Assembly: GCA_024679065.1 (NCBI GenBank)
Contig: JAGIQG010000002.1
Span: forward strand, 96,348,001 to 96,412,000
DNA from: Sphyrna mokarran
Lineage: Eukaryota
DNA: 64,000 nt
Direction: 5' to 3'
The notes beneath the pieces are model-generated. The model did not search any database. It worked only from the letters and a program-made list of their open reading frames with translations, and was not told where the DNA came from. The position numbers and the translations under genes were made by a program. Positions 1 to 64,000 of this stretch are shown piece after piece (position 1 is the stretch's first letter; every line of letters begins with the position of its first letter).

Positions 1-1309
1 TCAGCTTGCAGCTTTACTGTGCTACCTCCTAATAGTGATAATTGCTCTCACATTCAGAATCAGTGGGGTAATTTTTATCCCCCAATAATGGGTGAATTGG
101 GGACACGTAGGGAGTAAAAGTATTAAATCTTCAAAAAGGACTGCAAGTCAGCTTCAACACATTTTCAGACATGTTAGAAAGGTGGCAAACTGGGGATTTA
201 ATTATTGCAAGAGGGCAGGTAGTTAGTGGTGCAATTAAGGGCTTTAAGAGATATTAATGACATCTTTGTAAATTGATTTTAACAGCATTCTAAATTTAAC
301 ATGTACTGCATGGGGATCCTAGAGTTTAGGATACCAACTAATGAAGCAGAAGGGATTGAATTGTCATTCGAGTGGCTATTTAAACTTGTCGTTGCCCCAT
401 TTGAATAAAAACTCATTTATTGTAGCTGCTGTCTCTGTTCACCCTGGCAATCATTTTGCAAAAAGTATTTAAGGAGATATAGCATTTTTCAATCTTTCAA
501 ATCGATAGAATCAGGGAGGGAGTTGTGTTTAATGTATTTGATAGCAAAGGTATGGTGGCAGAACGGTATGTTACTGGACTAGTAATCCAGAGAACTGGAC
601 TAATGATCTAGATATGGTGCACTGGAATTTTGCCAATTTAGGAGCCCTTTAAAAATAGCTGGCAGGTCCCAACTCTGAGATTTCCAACCCATTCTCGAGC
701 TTTCTGACTTTCATGGGTGCGGCTAGTTTAGTTTGCTAGCCTGCACCTTGAAATCCTGACTTGACTGGCTCCCTTATGGGGATGGACGTGTCCATAGTTT
801 TCACAACTATGGCCATCTTTTCAAAGATTCATGGCTAATGGCAGCTTGGAGATGTTGTAAACTATAGTCTGAGAGAATCTGTGGAAAGGTAAGTTCTAAA
901 GGACCTCATCATGTTGTGTTTGGCAGGCTATGCCTCTCCACCCATCCCCATGACTCTCACACACCCATGCCAAACTGAAGCAATTCCATGTCATTGATTC
1001 TCTATACACTATATAGAATCAAATAACTTAATAACAACTACAGGATGTATAGGAAGCTGGCATTCATTCATAACTTTCCATTATGTTAAAGAGGAAGTTA
1101 GTTTACTACAGGGCAATAAAACTATCAAGTGTGCCTTCTGAAACAATTTAACAAGTCACTCAGTTGTATCAAACTGTATTGCTGAAGTAAAAAAATAGAT
1201 AATAAGATTAGACAATAATGACCTTGCCACCAGATACAACAAAGAAGCAGCCAGTTCAGTTGACCCTGCAAAGTCCTCCTCACTAACAACAAACACAAGC
1301 CCTGAGGAC

Positions 1310-1585
1310 AAGGAGCAAAAGTAGGTCATTCAATCCCTCAAGCCTGTTCCACCATTCAACAAGATTCTGGCTGATCTCACAGGAAGCTCAAATCTGCATC
1401 CCGCTACCACAATAACCTATCAACCATTTGTTTATCAAGAATCTATCTACCACTATCTTAAAAATATTCAAAAACTCTGCTTGCATCACCTTTTCAGGGT
1501 GAGCGTTCCAAAGATTCATAACCCTCAGAGAAAAATATTTGTCTTAACTCCTTTTTAAATGGGTAACCTGTTGATTTTAAATCAT
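1310..1585 (-). mobile_element. CR1 LINE 3' end fragment
   Basis: Reverse of a typical CR1 3' tail (ggagcaaaagtaggtcattcaatccctcaagcctgttccaccattcaa...gctgatct); same pattern as the copy at 6945 and the reverse of 42840-42915. Confidence 0.65.
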
Positions 1586-1924
1586 GATGTGATGCAGAAT
1601 TTTATCATTTTTGAATCAAATGCTGGCTCAGATGAAAAAATCAGCACACAGCTTGCCAGCTGCATAGCTGGCATTATCCATCAGATAAATCAGCACTTGG
1701 TGCAAAAAGATTAGAAGCATGCCCCATGGTGTCACACTGGAGGGGCAGAGCCAGAAAATCTGACAACATCAGGACTCCCAACTTTTAGGGCACTCTCATC
1801 TCCAATGTCAAAAAAAAAAGTCCCCAAGCAAACAGAGACCCTTCCATACATGTTAATGGACAATCACCAACCCCCCTCATGCCCAATGTCTCTTCCTGTG
1901 AGCCCGCCCTCACAGACACAGGAA

Positions 1925-1950
1925 CCCCCCCCCCCCCCCCCCCCCCCCCC
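1925..1950. repeat. poly-C tract (26 C) inside a degenerate MITE-like element
   Basis: Seen directly; flanked by a short direct repeat cagacacaggaac (1913-1925, 1961-1973). Confidence 0.9.
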
Positions 1951-2269
1951 AATCCCCCGACAGACACAGGAACTACTGCCACCCCAGACAGCTTTGGTAT
2001 TCTCCTTCTGAATGATAACCACCAGAGTTCTGGGTCCAGCTGAAGATAGATTGGAGTGGTTTGTGCCTCCTAATGTGGAATCACTAAAGCTGTCCCTGTC
2101 ACTTCTGAAGACTGTGTCACCAGATGAAAGCTCAATACTTGGCACTGATGGAAGGCTGGACATTGCAGAGACATTCCATCCTCAGAAACATCGGCTTTTC
2201 TCAGGAATTGTCCCCCATCAGAGACTGCTGAAGTCCCAGTCCATGAAATTGAAGGCAAATTATTCATCT

Positions 2270-3580
2270 GATTAGGAAATTGGCTGAACAGTAGTATGCC
2301 AATCAGAAAAATTTAACTCAGAGTGTCCCGCAAGGATCTATGAAGGGACCTCAACTACTCATCATATTTATTAATCCAGATGATAACATTTGATTAAATT
2401 TGCTGGTAACACAAAACATAGACAACATTACATGTTGTGTAGATGGAAGCATAATATTACAAAGAGATAGAAATAGACAGATGAGGATAAAAAGGAGATT
2501 TCAATGTCAGCAAGTACAGGAATCTATACAGTGCAGAAGGAGGCCATTCAGCATATCCAGTCTGCATCGACCATAATTCCACTCAGGCCCTATTTGCGTA
2601 ACCCCATATATTTACCCCACTGACACTACTGTCAATTTAGCAAGGCCAATCAACCTAACCTGCGCATCTTCGGACTGTGGGAGAAAACTGAAGCACTTGG
2701 AAGAAACTCACACAGACACAGGGAGAATATACAAACTCCACACAGACAGTGACGCGAGGCCAGAATTGAACCCAGGTCCCTAGTGCTGTGAGGTAGCAGT
2801 GCTAACACTGTGTCACCGTGCCACAGTACAAGGGAGCAGAAATTCTGCTCCCACTTTGCAAAGCCTTGCTTAGACAATGCCTGGAGTATTCCAAGTGGTT
2901 CTGGGCACGATATATTGGTCTTCAAGAGAGTGCTGTATAGATTTCGGGGTATGATATTTGGATTCCCATAATTAAATTATGAGGAGCTATTATACAAACT
3001 AGAGTTGTATTTCCTACAATGCAGGGTTAATTTGGCAAAAACTTTCACAATATTTAGGAAGTCATGAGACTTATTTGAGGGAAAGTATTGCCTCTATTTG
3101 TGGACCTAGGCGGAGGGGACAAAGTCTAAAATTTAGAGCCAGACCTTTCAGGAGTAAAATTAGGAAGTACCTACAGACACAAAGGATGGAGGAAAAAATG
3201 CTTATAAACTGCACGTGCATGCAGAATGGTGCCATGTAGGGAAACAGCAGGCTCCATACATGCAACATTCCCTGTAAGACACATGCTTGGTCCATGTCAA
3301 TTTCAAAAGGGTTGCAAAGTACAACAAATGACCTATTCACGACAAAATTAGAGGGAATATTGGTAGAAATAGTTTGGAATTTTCTTCTACAAATGACAAT
3401 TGGTGCTAGATCAACTTAAATTTTAAAACGAAGATTCAAAACATTTTGTTACCTAATGTATTGAGAGGTATAGGGAAAAGACAGGGAAATGGATTTAGTT
3501 TTGAGACCAGCCATGATCTCATTGGATGACAGAACAGGAATGTTAAATGGACTATCCTGATCCTATGCCCAATGTTCTGA
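2270..3580 (+). mobile_element. Degenerate CR1 LINE 3' RT region, interrupted by a SINE
   Basis: gtcccgcaaggatct (VPQGS), taaatttgctggtaacacaaaa (KFAGNTK, from KFADDTK), and a CR1 3' tail near 3500-3580. Confidence 0.65.
2519..2824 (-). mobile_element. HE1-type tRNA-derived V-SINE
   Basis: Reverse complement begins ggcacggtgacacagtgttagcactgctacctcacagc with B box gggttcaattc, then the V-domain (gtgtggagtttgtatattctccc...). Possible TSD agtaca at 2513-2518 and 2825-2830. Confidence 0.85.
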
Positions 3581-4681
3581 TGCAACGAAAAGGATTTGAT
3601 ATATCAGAGGACCATGCCACTTTAAATGTCAAAAGCACCCTGACACCCAATGACTACTGACCTCAGTTATGCTGTCCTGAGCATGCAAATCTATCGGAAG
3701 AAAGAGTTCGATCTTTTGGTCTTGCCTATAATTTGTGCAGCATAAATGCAGGCAGGAGTCAGCTGGGACTCTTTAACGACAGCACTGTCTATAATAGTAT
3801 CATCAAGCAGGACATTGGCATAAATCATTTGGCACTTTGCAAAGTGTCACTACTGTCAGCCTCCTTGTGATGTGATCTTTAGTCTTTCAGATCTATAGAC
3901 TGGCATTTGGATCAGCTAAGCACCTTGCACAATGCTTTGCATTTTAAAATCACTTCAGCCAATATGTAAACTTGATTGTAAATATTTGCAAAGCGTTGAC
4001 GTTAAATACTTTAACTATTCAAACATTTACTCTAGCATATCAGCAAAGCAAACTTCCACAACATTACTGTCTAATAAGGTTCATATACCACTTGTAAAAT
4101 GTTTTATCTTGTTGAATCTTATCTACTCAGAAATTCATTATAGAGCCAAAGAGTTTAACTCCTAAAATACTGAATGATAAAATAATTTAAAATCCCTCAA
4201 AATATTTCATTTGATTGGAACAAATGCACAACTTGTTATATTTTCTGAATAGATTTCAAACAATAATCTTCAACATTTTATATTTGTGAAATTAATATTA
4301 AGTTTGTCTTCCTCCTGTGTATTTTTTTTGATTGTTGTTTTGTAAGAAACCATCACAAATAATTTTCAACGTGTAGGGCTTTGAAATGTTGCAACATTGT
4401 AATTTGTTATATAAATGCAGGTATTATTTATTAGCATTGAAGCAGAAGTGTTTGCTAATCTATACTGAATAGCATTCAAATCATTTCATTAACCTTTTGT
4501 TAAAAGCACAATGGGACTGTCCATTTATACACAATAGGACATTGAGAACAAGCAAATAAATGTGAATGTGCGTGTCCTTTGTAAACTTTGCAACAAAGAT
4601 ATGCTATTACAGAAGCAGAATGTTGCAGATGCTGGAAATCTTAAATAAAAATAGATAATACTCAGCAAGTCAGGCAACAAT

Positions 4682-5468
4682 TTGATTTTCAAGTTTGCTG
4701 AAGACACATGGGTCGGATCTCAAACAATGACAAGACAGAGTACAGGAATGAGATAGAAAACCTGATGAACTGGTGCGGCAACAATAATCTCTCCTTCAAT
4801 GTCAACAAAATGAAGGAGATTGTCATCGACTTTAGGAAGTGTAAAGAAGAACATGCCCCTGTCTACATCAATGGGAACGAAGTAGAAAGGGCCAAGAGCT
4901 TCAGATTTTTAGGTGTCCAGATCATCAACAATCCGCCCTGGGCCCTCATGTCGACAGTCGAGTTAAGAAAGCCCACGAACTCCTTTACTTTCTCAGAAGA
5001 CTAAGGAAATTTGGCATGTCAACTATGATTCTCACCAATCTTTACAAATGCACTATAGAAAACATTCTTTCTAGTTGTATCACAGCTTAGTATGGCTCCT
5101 GCTCTGCAAGGAACTACAAAAGATCGTGAATAGAGCTCAATCCATCACACAAACCAGTCTCCCATCCATTGACTTTGTCTAGACTTCCTGTTGCCTCGGC
5201 AAAACAGCCAACATAATTAAGGACCTCATGCACCCTGAACATTCTCTCTTCCATCTTCTTCCATCTGGAACAAGATGGAAAAGTCTGAGGTCACGTACTA
5301 ACCGACTCAAGAACAACATCTTCCCTGCTGCTATCAGATTTTGAATGGACTTACCTTGCATTAAGGTGATCTTTCTCTATACCCTAGCTATGACTGTAAC
5401 ACTACATTCTGCACTCCCTCTGTCTGTATAGCGCGATAGAAATAACACTTTTCACTTTATGTTAATAA
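4682..5468 (+). mobile_element. Rex1/Babar LINE, 5'-truncated RT 3' fragment
   Basis: KFAEDT followed by ORF 4708-5004 GRISNNDKTEYRNEIENLMNWCGNNNLSFNVNKMKEIVIDFRK, a Rex1 RT C-terminal signature. Inserted into a short Penelope-related repeat (4610-4680 and 5470-5510). Confidence 0.85.
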
Positions 5469-59202: not shown

Positions 59203-59457
59203 TGGTGTAAAGATGCTGGCGTTGGACTGGGGTAGTAAGAACTCAGTAAGAATTTAGCAACACCAATTTTAAATCCAACCGATTTATTTGATAGTAAAAT
59301 TGCGAGCTTTCAACACTCTGTGTCTTCGTCAGGCAAATGCAGTGTTCTGGTCTGCAATAGCACACATCAGCCTGAAGTGTTGAAAGCTCGCAATTTTACT
59401 ATCAAATAAATCGGTTGGATTTAAAATTGGTATTGCTAAATTCTTACTCGTTCTTAC
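59203..59457 (-). mobile_element. Non-coding fold-back Penelope mini-element
   Basis: Homologous to 17020-17165; arms 59235-59317 and 59376-59457 are near-perfect inverted repeats; TSD acctggaa at 59191-59198 and 59456-59463. Confidence 0.9.
59300..59336 (-). ncRNA. Minimal hammerhead ribozyme
   Basis: Minus strand: ttgc-CTGACGA-a-gacac-aga-gtgtt-GAAA-gc-TC-gcaa; helix I ttgc/gcaa is perfect. Confidence 0.8.
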
Positions 59458-61170: not shown

Positions 61171-61369
61171 ATGACTCACCCAGTTATAATCACATTTAGA
61201 TTGTAACGATACCAGAGGGTGTTGATTTCCATTTATTAATGAGTCCTCTGGGAGCATTTTCCACATGAGTCGGCTCCCAAATTAAAATAGTGATCAGAGA
61301 GTTTCATGTGGGAATGGGCCAGAAGTCAATTTTCGCTAACCAGATCACCAGCTGCATTGCTGTTTGGCA
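61171..61369 (+). repeat. 199-bp source segment duplicated at 62547-62745
   Basis: Three mismatches over 199 bp, two of them within the first 10 bp. Confidence 0.95.
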
Positions 61370-62120: not shown

Positions 62121-62779
62121 AAGATCTTTCGACACTAGGATGAGAATTTTAAATACAGTGTTGGGGAAAGGGGAAACAATAGCAAGGAAATGGATTCAGA
62201 ATTCACAATACATGATAATGGATGGGAAATGGGTATAGTTTAAGGGAAACTAAAGTTTGTGTTGCACTAAATATGGGAAATTGTTGAGAATGGTGATGGA
62301 ATAATTGAGTCTGAAGGTGATAGAGGAATAGTAGTGCATGGAGGTGGATATCACAGAGATGGAAATAAGCAGTCTGTTTCATAGAGGGAACATCAGATTT
62401 GAAAGCTCAGCACTGATATCAAAACTAGTGTACTTCAGCCTGAGAGATTGGACTTGAGGAAAGTGGCTGGGTGGAAGTTGAGTGGGCGGGGGGAGGGGAA
62501 GAGGGAAGAGGAGGATGGAATTGATTGTGTATGGAGCCCAAAAACAATGGCTCATCCAGTTATAATCACATTTAGATTGTAACGATACCAGAGGGTGTTG
62601 ATTTCCATTTATTAATGAGTCCTCTGGGAGCATTTTCCACACGAGTCGGCTCCCAAATTAAAATAGTGATCAGAGAGTTTCATGTGGGAATGGGCCAGAA
62701 GTCAATTTTCGCTAACCAGATCACCAGCTGCATTGCTGTTTGGCAAATGACATTGACCACTGACCAATGACACTACCAC

Positions 62780-63024
62780 TGACATTTCGGGTAGTGGCAG
62801 GCAATCGAGTGGAACTCACCGGGCTTACCGCAACGAGAACATTTGGTCACGATGTTCTTGGTCCTGTGCACTGTCTTGAAATGATCTCTGAAAGCTCCAA
62901 CTGTGGGGAGTATGGAATTGCAGGGCTTGCAATACAATGCATCAGTGGGATAATGGATCACCACTTCCTTAACCTCTGAACGGTCTTCCGTAGGTGTTAT
63001 TGTAACTGTCTCGATGAAGGTGCC
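62780..63024 (-). pseudogene. Double zinc-finger fragment resembling the N-terminus of an RLE-type (R2/NeSL/Utopia group) retrotransposon
   Basis: YCKPCNSILPTVGAFRDHFKTVH (C2H2) and CSRCGKPGEFHSIACHYPKC (C2HC); no stop codons, CpGs retained. Confidence 0.7.
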
Positions 63025-64000
63025 TTTTAACAGAAGAAAATTATGGCACATCCAAGAATGAAAGTTTGACAACATAGATGCAGTGGAGTGGGTGAGAGGT
63101 AGAGCACAGTGTTATTTATTTGCATGGAAAACAGTTGTTTGTAAATTATGACCCATTATTAGTGAAAAATGTCACCAAAGGGGAAGCATTTAGTGAGGTG
63201 AGGGTTGGACCAAGAATCAACTCATGCGTACTCCAGAGATAACAATCTCCAGAGATAATTGATGGAAAGAAGAGCCACTGATGGAGATGGTCTTTCTGCG
63301 ATTACATAGGTTAGAATGAAACTCAGTAAGTATCCTATTGAGCTGAACCACTGAGAAGAAGCGTTGAAGCAAAATCCCACCATCCAAATCAAAGGATTCA
63401 GAAATGTCAAGGAGCATGAAGAGGGATAAGGCACCAATCAGCATGGAAGGCATTTATTAGAGTCCTCAGATATTCCTCAGTTCCTAAGATAAAGGATTAA
63501 AAAACTTCAAATGACAGGCAAGGAATGTATGTATTCTTATGTATTGAGTTCGGATTTTAAAATGGAGTTGGATTATTGATATTTGGTAACTACATTTTTA
63601 CACTACAAGCATTTAATAGTTTTTATGTATTGTGTACTGTTTAACTACGAACATTAGATTTTTATGCACACGACACTGAACTTCTAATGTATGGCCATTT
63701 GAATTTCTAATAATAACTATTTTGCCTTTATGTAATACTTTTTATTTTTTTAAGATGCTCGAAAGTACTTCACAGCCAATAAATTATTTTGGAATACAAA
63801 GACCATTCTAATGTAGGATAGCATGGCAACCAATTCACACACAATTAAAGCTCCTGGGACTGTAACAACTCTTTAGTAGTGGGCAAGAAACACTGGCACT
63901 TGAAAAATCCTACCCATTAAACAGAAATATTACAGGAGTTTGAGATGGGCAAGGTTTATTTTACTCCCCCCATGTTGTTATTCTGACGTCGTTTTTACGT

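What the first reader, a model, noticed from the sequence alone, without database searches (positions are those of the whole stretch)
62553..63025. Composite templated insertion: local DNA copy fused to a retrotransposon zinc-finger fragment, splitting an L2 motif
Seen: the L2 RT motif WMxxNFLxLNxxKTEAIVFG is cut in two on the minus strand (WMCHNFLLL at 63028-63054, AIVFG at 62537-62551), with about 15-18 nt missing and no TSD. The ~470-bp filler has three parts: a near-identical copy of 61171-61369 from 1376 bp upstream (junction microhomology atggctca versus atgactca), an imperfect ~20-bp tandem (aatgacattgaccactgac / aatgacactaccactgac, 62746-62783), and a stop-free C2H2+C2HC coding fragment. 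Established: a small deletion, microhomology and a locally templated patchwork are hallmarks of polymerase-theta/synthesis-dependent break repair, whereas target-primed retrotransposition leaves 3' ends with TSDs. Inference: a recent germline break was repaired by switching between neighbouring DNA and a retroelement RNA, cDNA or DNA template.
Basis: partly seen in the sequence, partly recalled or inferred. Interest (0 to 1): 0.72.

Follow-up and report, generated by a model that had tools for sequence, protein, structure and literature searches.

The report
Stranded R2 fragment in repair scar
A short piece of the jumping gene R2 and a copy of nearby DNA sit together at one spot that is empty in two related species; it is likely the inert scar of an R2 insertion that broke half-way and was patched by DNA repair.

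Summary
Real, single-copy, young, probably inert. Contigs of two related organisms show the empty site: 467 nt were added and only 2 nt lost, not 15-18. The insert is 187 nt copied from 1,376 nt away (primed on a pre-existing 10/12 match), a 33-nt patch, and nt ~675-922 of a ~4.95-kb lineage-A R2 retrotransposon dispersed outside rDNA. Of 100 zinc-finger-bearing R2 places examined, only this one is a short, doubly truncated piece. The patch is built from repeats of the R2 end and parses far better as growth from the R2 sense strand, against one strand switching from local DNA onto RNA. Best reading (0.5): R2 cut the site, made a 5'-truncated insertion, second-strand synthesis stopped after 248 nt, replication broke the gap, and theta-type joining closed it, as proposed for L1 in a 2026 preprint. 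The 2-nt loss fits R2 nicking, but the site reads TGG, not the usual TAG, so capture at an unrelated break stays open. Short-read contigs support the middle and right junctions weakly; the left is uncovered. The scan noted this dispersed R2 family before on other DNA, not this locus. Known kind of event, new element family.

The parts
61171..61182 (+). Landing site in the donor: 10 of 12 letters match the left end of the target (62547-62558)
   Evidence: chance of at least 10/12 in register 8e-5; such a match somewhere within about 3 kb is common, 92 of 400 random 12-mers
61183..61369 (+). Donor of the local copy (187 nt), single-copy DNA; it gained one C>T change (61266) after the copy was made
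   Evidence: donors of X2, X4 and X9 carry C, as the copy does
62547..62558 (+). Old target sequence left of the insert; inferred primer end; downstream flank in R2 orientation (reads TGGAT)
   Evidence: present in the empty-site contigs of X3 and X4
62559..62745 (+). Local templated copy, 187 nt, 1 mismatch to the donor
62746..62778 (-). 33-nt patch of short direct and inverted repeats of the R2 end and of itself
   Evidence: 33 of 33 letters covered by repeats of at least 6 nt, 0 of 1500 shuffles; parse cost 17 from the R2 sense end, 0 of 1000 shuffles; one place in G000; inside a 93-nt X1 contig with no difference
62779..63026 (-). R2 fragment, nt about 675-922 of a 4.95-kb element, coding the first two N-terminal zinc fingers; 63026 is a 1-nt overlap with the target
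   Evidence: 98.4% to L002; matches R2Tg residues 219-283, E 3.1e-6
63026..63429 (-).
   Evidence: no Pfam hit; single copy at DNA level; X3 orthologous contig

Best explanation
The 467-nt insert joins a 187-nt copy of nearby DNA, a 33-nt repeat patch and an internal 248-nt R2 piece at a site that lost 2 nt, and it is likely the product of an R2 insertion that broke during second-strand synthesis and was closed by templated end joining. Shown: the parts, their sources, the empty site, the 2-nt loss, the 0-1-nt overlap at the R2 5' junction, and the better parse of the patch from the R2 sense strand. Inferred steps: (1) R2 protein nicked a loosely matching site, bottom strand at 62558/9 and top strand 2 nt upstream; (2) a 5'-truncated cDNA was joined to the upstream flank at R2 nt 675; (3) the second (sense) strand stopped after 248 nt; (4) replication through the gap, or loss of the single-stranded cDNA, gave two DNA ends, one ending at R2 nt 922 and one at the nick with no R2 on it; (5) the nick-side end annealed on a 10/12 match 1.4 kb away and copied 187 nt, the R2-side end went through about nine rounds of short snap-back and slippage synthesis, and the two were joined, probably by polymerase theta. 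No function is expected.
For: Empty site with 2 nt lost in 2 organisms; R2 proteins nick the second strand 2 bp upstream of the first, with frequent 2-bp deletions (PMC13486585, passages). In this family 13 of 51 copies could be compared with a paralogous empty site and lost 0-22 nt, median 3. All disorder lies on the 3' side of the R2 piece; the 5' junction is clean with 0-1 nt overlap, as in 5'-truncated R2 junctions (PMC2718515, passages); 11 of 52 copies are 5'-truncated. The patch parses at cost 11/17/28/35 from the sense end against 19/32/39/44 from the local-copy end even with R2 RNA allowed as template. The fragment belongs to the L002-L007 subfamily and lacks the private letters of any one copy among 42 compared, as expected from a then-active source. 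Of 99 other places, 95 keep the 3' end; the 2 resolvable 3'-less copies (L190, L212) also lost or rearranged their flank, unlike this site. The same route to 3'-truncated insertions is proposed for L1 (10.1101/2024.12.14.628481, section 11 read).
Against: The downstream flank reads TGG; the family has TAG in 57 of 95 flanks and TGG in 1 of 95, no more than the 1.8% background. A weight matrix puts the site in the top 3.0-3.5% of window positions, but that matrix holds some mis-registered ends. No second clean example was found among 99 places; my one candidate (L190) failed. A 2-nt loss is also ordinary for end joining. A 187-nt tract from 1.4 kb away is longer and farther than typical theta insertions (PMC7165422, passages). 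The parse uses my own cost rule. The left junction is not covered by any X1 contig.
Confidence: 0.5

Rival explanations
1. Endonuclease-independent capture: an unrelated double-strand break picked up a piece of R2 cDNA or DNA on its right end, and both ends were then extended and joined as above (an R2 counterpart of non-classical Alu/L1 insertions).
For: Both ends truncated, no tail, no target duplication, small deletion and extra non-element DNA match the description of non-classical Alu insertions (PMC5402677, passages). The site is not a typical R2 site (TGG 1 of 95). Patch polarity is compatible if the captured piece was DNA.
Against: Does not predict a loss of exactly 2 nt, nor that the clean junction is the R2 5' one. 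A 0-1-nt overlap is too little for invasion of a genomic copy, and no copy among 42 shares its private letters.
Confidence: 0.22
2. Two steps: an ordinary 5'-truncated R2 insertion (nt 675 to the 3' end), later a 4-kb deletion filled with the patch and the local copy.
For: Large deletions occur in this family: L087, L107, L193 and L213 lack 1.4-4.1 kb inside, L190 and L212 lack the 3' end. Patch polarity fits a break inside a finished copy.
Against: The deletion would have to end exactly at the old 3' junction, leaving no R2 tail and removing no flank; the 2 resolvable 3'-less copies did lose flank.
Confidence: 0.13
3. One nascent plus strand: the left end copied local DNA, then a reverse transcriptase (R2's own, by template jump) continued on a broken R2 RNA from nt 922 to 675 (closest to the first reader's picture).
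For: The plus strand is antisense to R2, as cDNA would be; the R2 5' junction looks like a cDNA join; R2 proteins jump templates (PMC11371274, passages); the plus-direction parse beats most shuffles (14 of 1000 reach it).
Against: It leaves 13 of 33 patch letters untemplated against 5 in the other direction at the same setting, and cannot explain the inverted 7-nt block. PMC11371274 reports that synthesis needs the template 3' module and R2's own nick.
Confidence: 0.1
4. Assembly artefact or chimeric read.
For: No X1 contig covers the left junction, and X1's donor contig is not broken at the start of the repeat. The X1 contigs over the middle and right junctions reach only about 30 letters past them, under the tool's 31-letter rule. 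X1 may be the assembly's own sample.
Against: An independent contig assembly of raw reads holds the unique patch between copy and R2 without a difference, forks at the end of the repeat, and shows no empty-site joint in X1. The copy keeps the ancestral C that the donor has lost, which a copying artefact of this genome cannot give. The G-rich stretch left of the junction also breaks the X3 and X4 contigs.
Confidence: 0.04

Closest known systems
3'-truncated L1 insertions from incomplete second-strand synthesis (bioRxiv 10.1101/2024.12.14.628481; passages and section 11 read)
   Same: Element piece truncated at both ends, clean 5' junction, 3' tail lost, break inferred from a gap on the second strand.
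   Different: Described for L1 in cancer genomes and cell models, with the sister insertion seen; here R2, germline, fixed in an assembly, with a local templated copy and a repeat patch, and no sister product to see.
Non-classical Alu/L1 insertions (as described in PMC5402677; passages)
   Same: 3'-truncated, no tail, no target duplication, target deletion, extra non-element DNA.
   Different: Element is R2; the deletion is only 2 nt; whether an endonuclease site is absent is unresolved here.
Polymerase-theta templated insertions, TINS (PMC7165422; passages); SD-MMEJ (PMC5728401, PMC2943611; search listing only)
   Same: Patch made of short direct and inverted copies of flanking DNA, several rounds, 2-3-nt priming.
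   Different: The 187-nt tract from 1.4 kb away exceeds typical tracts; enzyme identity cannot be tested from sequence.
Lineage-A R2: R2Tg and turtle R2 (PDB 9dou, 9nl3, 9nl2); shark R2s of PMC13188248 (passages); non-specific R2NS families of PMC5035012 (passages)
   Same: Three N-terminal zinc fingers, RT, 28S-derived 5' end; one copy (L208) sits between the two 28S flanks.
   Different: Most copies of this family lie outside rDNA at loose TAG sites; the passages read describe non-specific R2 only in flatworms. I did not compare the family with the shark sequences in the supplements of PMC13188248, which may hold it.
Snap-back and extra-template junctions of R2-mediated transgene insertion (PMC11371274; passages)
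   Same: R2 insertions finished by extra local synthesis; rare reads fuse internal transgene sequence to a genomic site.
   Different: There the extra synthesis is at the 5' junction from the cDNA end; here it is at the 3' side from the sense strand.

Membership tests
Lineage-A R2 (donor family of the fragment) | RT of R2 type | tested here: met
   1147-aa frame of L028 matches R2Tg at E 2.4e-211, R2Bm-type chains 1.6e-77, L1 ORF2 1e-29; Pfam RVT_1
Lineage-A R2 (donor family of the fragment) | Three N-terminal zinc fingers | tested here: met
   Fragment aligns to R2Tg 219-283; a third finger follows in L028/L031 (Pfam hit below cut-off). The Myb and nuclease motifs were read by eye from recall.
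Lineage-A R2 (donor family of the fragment) | 5' end carries 28S sequence upstream of the target | tested here: met
   20 of 20 letters match the genome's own 28S (L129); 39 of 52 copies are 5'-complete
Lineage-A R2 (donor family of the fragment) | Site-specific insertion in 28S rDNA | tested here: not met
   1 of 95 3' flanks is 28S (L208); the rest are other DNA, 57 of 95 starting TAG. rDNA is poorly represented in the assembly, so rDNA copies may be missed.
Lineage-A R2 (donor family of the fragment) | 5' HDV-like ribozyme | tested here: inconclusive
   No Rfam match in L031:900-1900 at E up to 1; not folded by hand
Canonical target-primed R2 insertion | Element 3' end joined to the downstream flank | tested here: not met
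   Only nt about 675-922 are present
Canonical target-primed R2 insertion | Downstream flank matches the family's nick motif | tested here: inconclusive
   TGG, 1 of 95 flanks; top 3.0-3.5% by weight matrix; background 1.8%
Canonical target-primed R2 insertion | Small upstream target loss, short overlap at the 5' junction | tested here: met
   2 nt lost, 0-1 nt overlap; family median 3 nt in 13 of 51
Non-classical (3'-truncated) retroelement insertion | 3'-truncated, no tail, no target duplication, target deletion, extra DNA | tested here: met
   definition from PMC5402677
Non-classical (3'-truncated) retroelement insertion | No endonuclease site at the insertion point | tested here: inconclusive
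Polymerase-theta templated insertion | Insert made of direct or inverted repeats of flanking DNA, at least 5 nt, in short rounds | tested here: met
   33 of 33 letters, 0 of 1500 shuffles at 6 nt; 31 of 33 at 7 nt; 13 of 33 at 8 nt, 18 of 1500
Polymerase-theta templated insertion | Template within about 30 bp, tracts rarely over 10 bp | tested here: not met
   True for the patch, not for the 187-nt tract 1,376 nt away
Polymerase-theta templated insertion | Dependence on POLQ | not testable with these tools
   needs cells
L2 LINE (host sequence) | Alignment to an L2 ORF2 reference across both flanks | tested here: inconclusive
   No Pfam hit in 3 of 3 pieces; only a repeat-protein artefact among representatives; weak matches to 3 other decayed loci

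The most novel reading that the evidence does not exclude
A germline fossil of an R2 integration intermediate: the 248 nt measure how far second-strand synthesis had gone when the gap was replicated, so R2 can leave 3'-less pieces with locally copied DNA at its own off-target cut sites, a class that assays anchored on the template 3' end would miss; the copies whose 5' part jumps to within 55-280 nt of the 3' end (L087, L193, L213) may be milder members of the same class.
Probability: 0.4. Interest if true: 0.5.

Novelty: new member of a known kind. Interest (0 to 1): 0.3.

Why it matters
As one inert scar in a dead LINE it changes nothing in the organism. Its value is as a natural record: R2 proteins are being developed for gene insertion, and how the second strand is made and what happens when it fails is an open question in the papers read. 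If the best reading holds, a failure mode proposed for L1 also acts on R2 in a vertebrate-type germline, and a genome with about a hundred dispersed R2 copies plus sister genomes with empty sites gives a way to count such outcomes.

Tried and rejected
Multi-copy composite element: rejected. 15-18-nt deletion: rejected. A specific decayed genomic copy as donor: not supported; L002 is closest (4 differences in 247) but its private letters are absent, no near-identical sister of L002 turned up (best 96%, 40 of 174 candidates scored), and none of 56 more loci exceeded 95.2%; 8 of 108 places were not listed and copies with more than 1 mismatch to the probe were not seen. A third template for the patch: none in G000. 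L190 as a second clean case (3'-less, 11-nt repeated filler, then TAG): rejected, its upstream repeat does not resume downstream. An extended motif (A at -4, purine at -1, T-G at +1/+3; 0.8% background) fits the site but was drawn after the fact from three target classes, so it is not counted. Locally templated filler at 5' junctions of other copies: 2 of 48 show short ones (L025, L030), 1 further hit looks like a neighbouring repeat; none like this one. Confirming L2: failed. Ribozyme by Rfam: no match. An exact intact 28S target pattern: 0 matches. No RNA holder listed. X2, X5 and X9 do not cover the site, so they say nothing on presence. One search crashed after 12 rows and was replaced. 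Earlier notes near this place or like this sequence: none. A printed report of a 3'-less natural R2 piece with local templated DNA, or of a dispersed shark R2 family: not seen in the listings; the library lacks most subscription papers, and McIntyre et al. (Science 391, eadz3121) was seen only as a reference line.

Full report
Observation. The window holds a 199-nt direct repeat (61171-61369 and 62547-62745, spacing 1,376) with three mismatches, two of them in the first 12 letters, followed by a short imperfect tandem and a stop-free zinc-finger frame on the minus strand. The repeat occurs at 2 places in G000, both in the window. The patch occurs once with up to 2 mismatches. The zinc-finger piece, 62779-63026, matched 39 other places among the 40 scored of 150 candidates, and those copies run on past both of its ends. 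The fusion is therefore unique.

Empty site. Contigs of public runs were laid on the locus. Run X3 (organism C) has one contig that joins 62558 to 63026 with TG between; run X4 (organism D) has one that leaves the window at 62558 and continues TG plus the right flank. So 467 nt (62559-63025) were added and 2 nt lost. The letters 62547-62558 are old target, matching the donor at 10 of 12 (chance in register 8e-5; a match of this quality somewhere nearby is common, 92 of 400). X2, X5 and X9 do not cover the site. In X1, which may be the assembly's own sample, a 93-nt contig covers the end of the copy, the patch and the start of R2 with no difference, and another covers the right junction from 62997; both reach only about 30 letters beyond a junction, under the tool's 31-letter rule, which is what a 31-letter graph gives between repeats (my inference). 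No X1 contig covers the left junction, and none shows the empty form.

Age. Copy and donor differ at 1 of 187 letters (0.5%, 95% range 0.01-3%); X2, X4 and X9 show that the donor changed, not the copy. An X3 contig over the donor region differs at 57 of 1,224 (4.7%); one difference or fewer would have probability 0.0016 at that rate. The event is much younger than the split from organisms C and D. No absolute date is given.

The donor element. Twelve fetched copies define a 4.95-kb element with one long frame. It matches R2Tg at E 2.4e-211, the window's piece aligns to R2Tg residues 219-283, and its 5' end matches the genome's own 28S at 20 of 20 letters. A 20-letter probe from the piece finds 108 places; I examined all 100 listed, the window included. 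Of the 99 others, 95 keep the 3' end; L190 and L212 lack it and have lost or rearranged the flank; L170 and L187 end at other inserted sequence and are unresolved. None is a short doubly truncated piece. Of 95 3' flanks scored (this set includes copies first found by their 3' end), 57 start TAG and 1 starts TGG; one (L208) has 28S on both sides. For 13 of 51 copies a paralogous repeat gave an approximate empty site; target loss was 0-22 nt, median 3. The window's piece shares the diagnostic letters of the older subfamily L002-L007, differs from L002 at 4 of 247, has about 2-3 changes of its own and does not carry L002's private letters. That the genome is a shark or ray comes from earlier notes of the scan and was not tested.

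The patch. All 33 letters are covered by direct or inverted repeats of at least 6 nt of the junction region (0 of 1,500 shuffles). I parsed it as rounds of primed synthesis from either end. Growth from the R2 sense end cost 11, 17, 28 and 35 in four settings; growth from the local-copy end cost 19, 32, 39 and 44 with R2 RNA allowed as template, and more without. At the setting used for controls, 0 of 1,000 shuffles reached the sense-end cost and 14 of 1,000 the other. The cost rule is mine. The result suggests a free 3' end of R2 sense DNA at nt 922, while the local copy is best primed from the left target end: two ends, each extended, then joined.

Mechanism. In R2 orientation the order is upstream flank, R2 nt 675-922, patch, local copy, downstream flank. 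The 5' junction is clean (0-1 nt overlap) and 2 nt are lost. R2 proteins nick the second strand 2 bp upstream of the first (PMC13486585, passages), and 5'-truncated R2 junctions commonly show 1-5 nt overlaps (PMC2718515, passages). For L1, replication through a gap left by incomplete second-strand synthesis is proposed to give two ends whose joining yields a 3'-truncated insertion (10.1101/2024.12.14.628481, section 11). Applied here it predicts what is seen: an R2 piece attached by its 5' end, a free sense-strand end, no R2 tail, and a flank intact up to the nick. Patches of short direct and inverted repeats are characteristic of polymerase theta (PMC7165422, passages), though the 187-nt tract is longer and more distant than typical. 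Against R2 cutting: the flank reads TGG, no more frequent among real sites (1 of 95) than in background (1.8%), although a weight matrix ranks it in the top 3.0-3.5%. My one candidate for a second case, L190, failed. I put this reading at 0.5, capture at an unrelated break at 0.22, a later deletion at 0.13, a single strand jumping onto RNA at 0.10 and artefact at 0.04; these are judgements, not computed values.

Comparison and novelty. The structure meets the description of non-classical, 3'-truncated insertions (PMC5402677, passages) and fails that of a canonical target-primed insertion. Snap-back and extra-template junctions are known for R2 in cells, at the 5' junction (PMC11371274, passages). 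Non-specific R2 families are known from flatworms (PMC5035012, passages) and shark R2s are catalogued (PMC13188248, passages; supplements not read, and they may bear on the family's name). The review PMC13580325 (passages) also notes generalist R2s in a few species. I saw no printed natural R2 case like this in the listings. The scan noted the dispersed family before on other DNA, not this locus. Verdict: a real, well-resolved but ordinary kind of scar, new for this element family; interest 0.3.

Noticed in passing
G000, 108 places; L022-L035, L068-L107, L165-L220: A lineage-A R2 family dispersed outside rDNA, with 28S-derived 5' ends and loose TAG targets; two sites in other repeats are hit again and again (L070, L076, L096, L097, L099; L027, L031, L072, L073, L085, L086 and more). 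The label CR1 for those repeats is recalled.
   Followed up: partly
L208 (G000:C882:97489000-97496800): A full-length copy with 28S sequence on both sides, inside what looks like a short stranded 28S piece; it shows the family can still use the canonical site.
   Followed up: partly
L087, L107, L193, L213: Copies whose 5' part jumps to near the 3' end (581 to 4698, 1946 to 3386, 837 to 4867, 1529 to about 4925); three of four land within 280 nt of the end, two with short fillers; may be made during integration.
   Followed up: partly
L190 (G000:C1:68401000-68408800) and L225: 3'-less R2 (nt 1-3358) ending in an 11-nt repeated filler; the upstream repeat does not resume; 280 nt of its downstream flank recur at 96% on another contig.
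   Followed up: yes
L171, L172 (G000:C738:41143700-41156400): Head-to-tail tandem R2 copies, apparently three or more.
   Followed up: no
L025, L030, L071, L072: Junction oddities: 146-nt duplication of the R2 5' end (L025), a 31-nt duplication of flank on both sides (L030), tandem 3' tail (L071), internal 210-nt duplication (L072).
   Followed up: no
L206 and L223; L101: Copies in which an internal or 5' piece appears inverted against the rest; joins not resolved.
   Followed up: no
window 59245-59448: Inverted repeat with 73-nt arms, 99% complementary, 58 nt apart; looks like another young fold-back scar 1.7 kb from the donor.
   Followed up: no
window 63026-63054 and 62779-63025, minus strand: The host LINE motif and the R2 zinc-finger frame are fused in frame; a one-in-three coincidence, with no sign of a start or of expression.
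   Followed up: no
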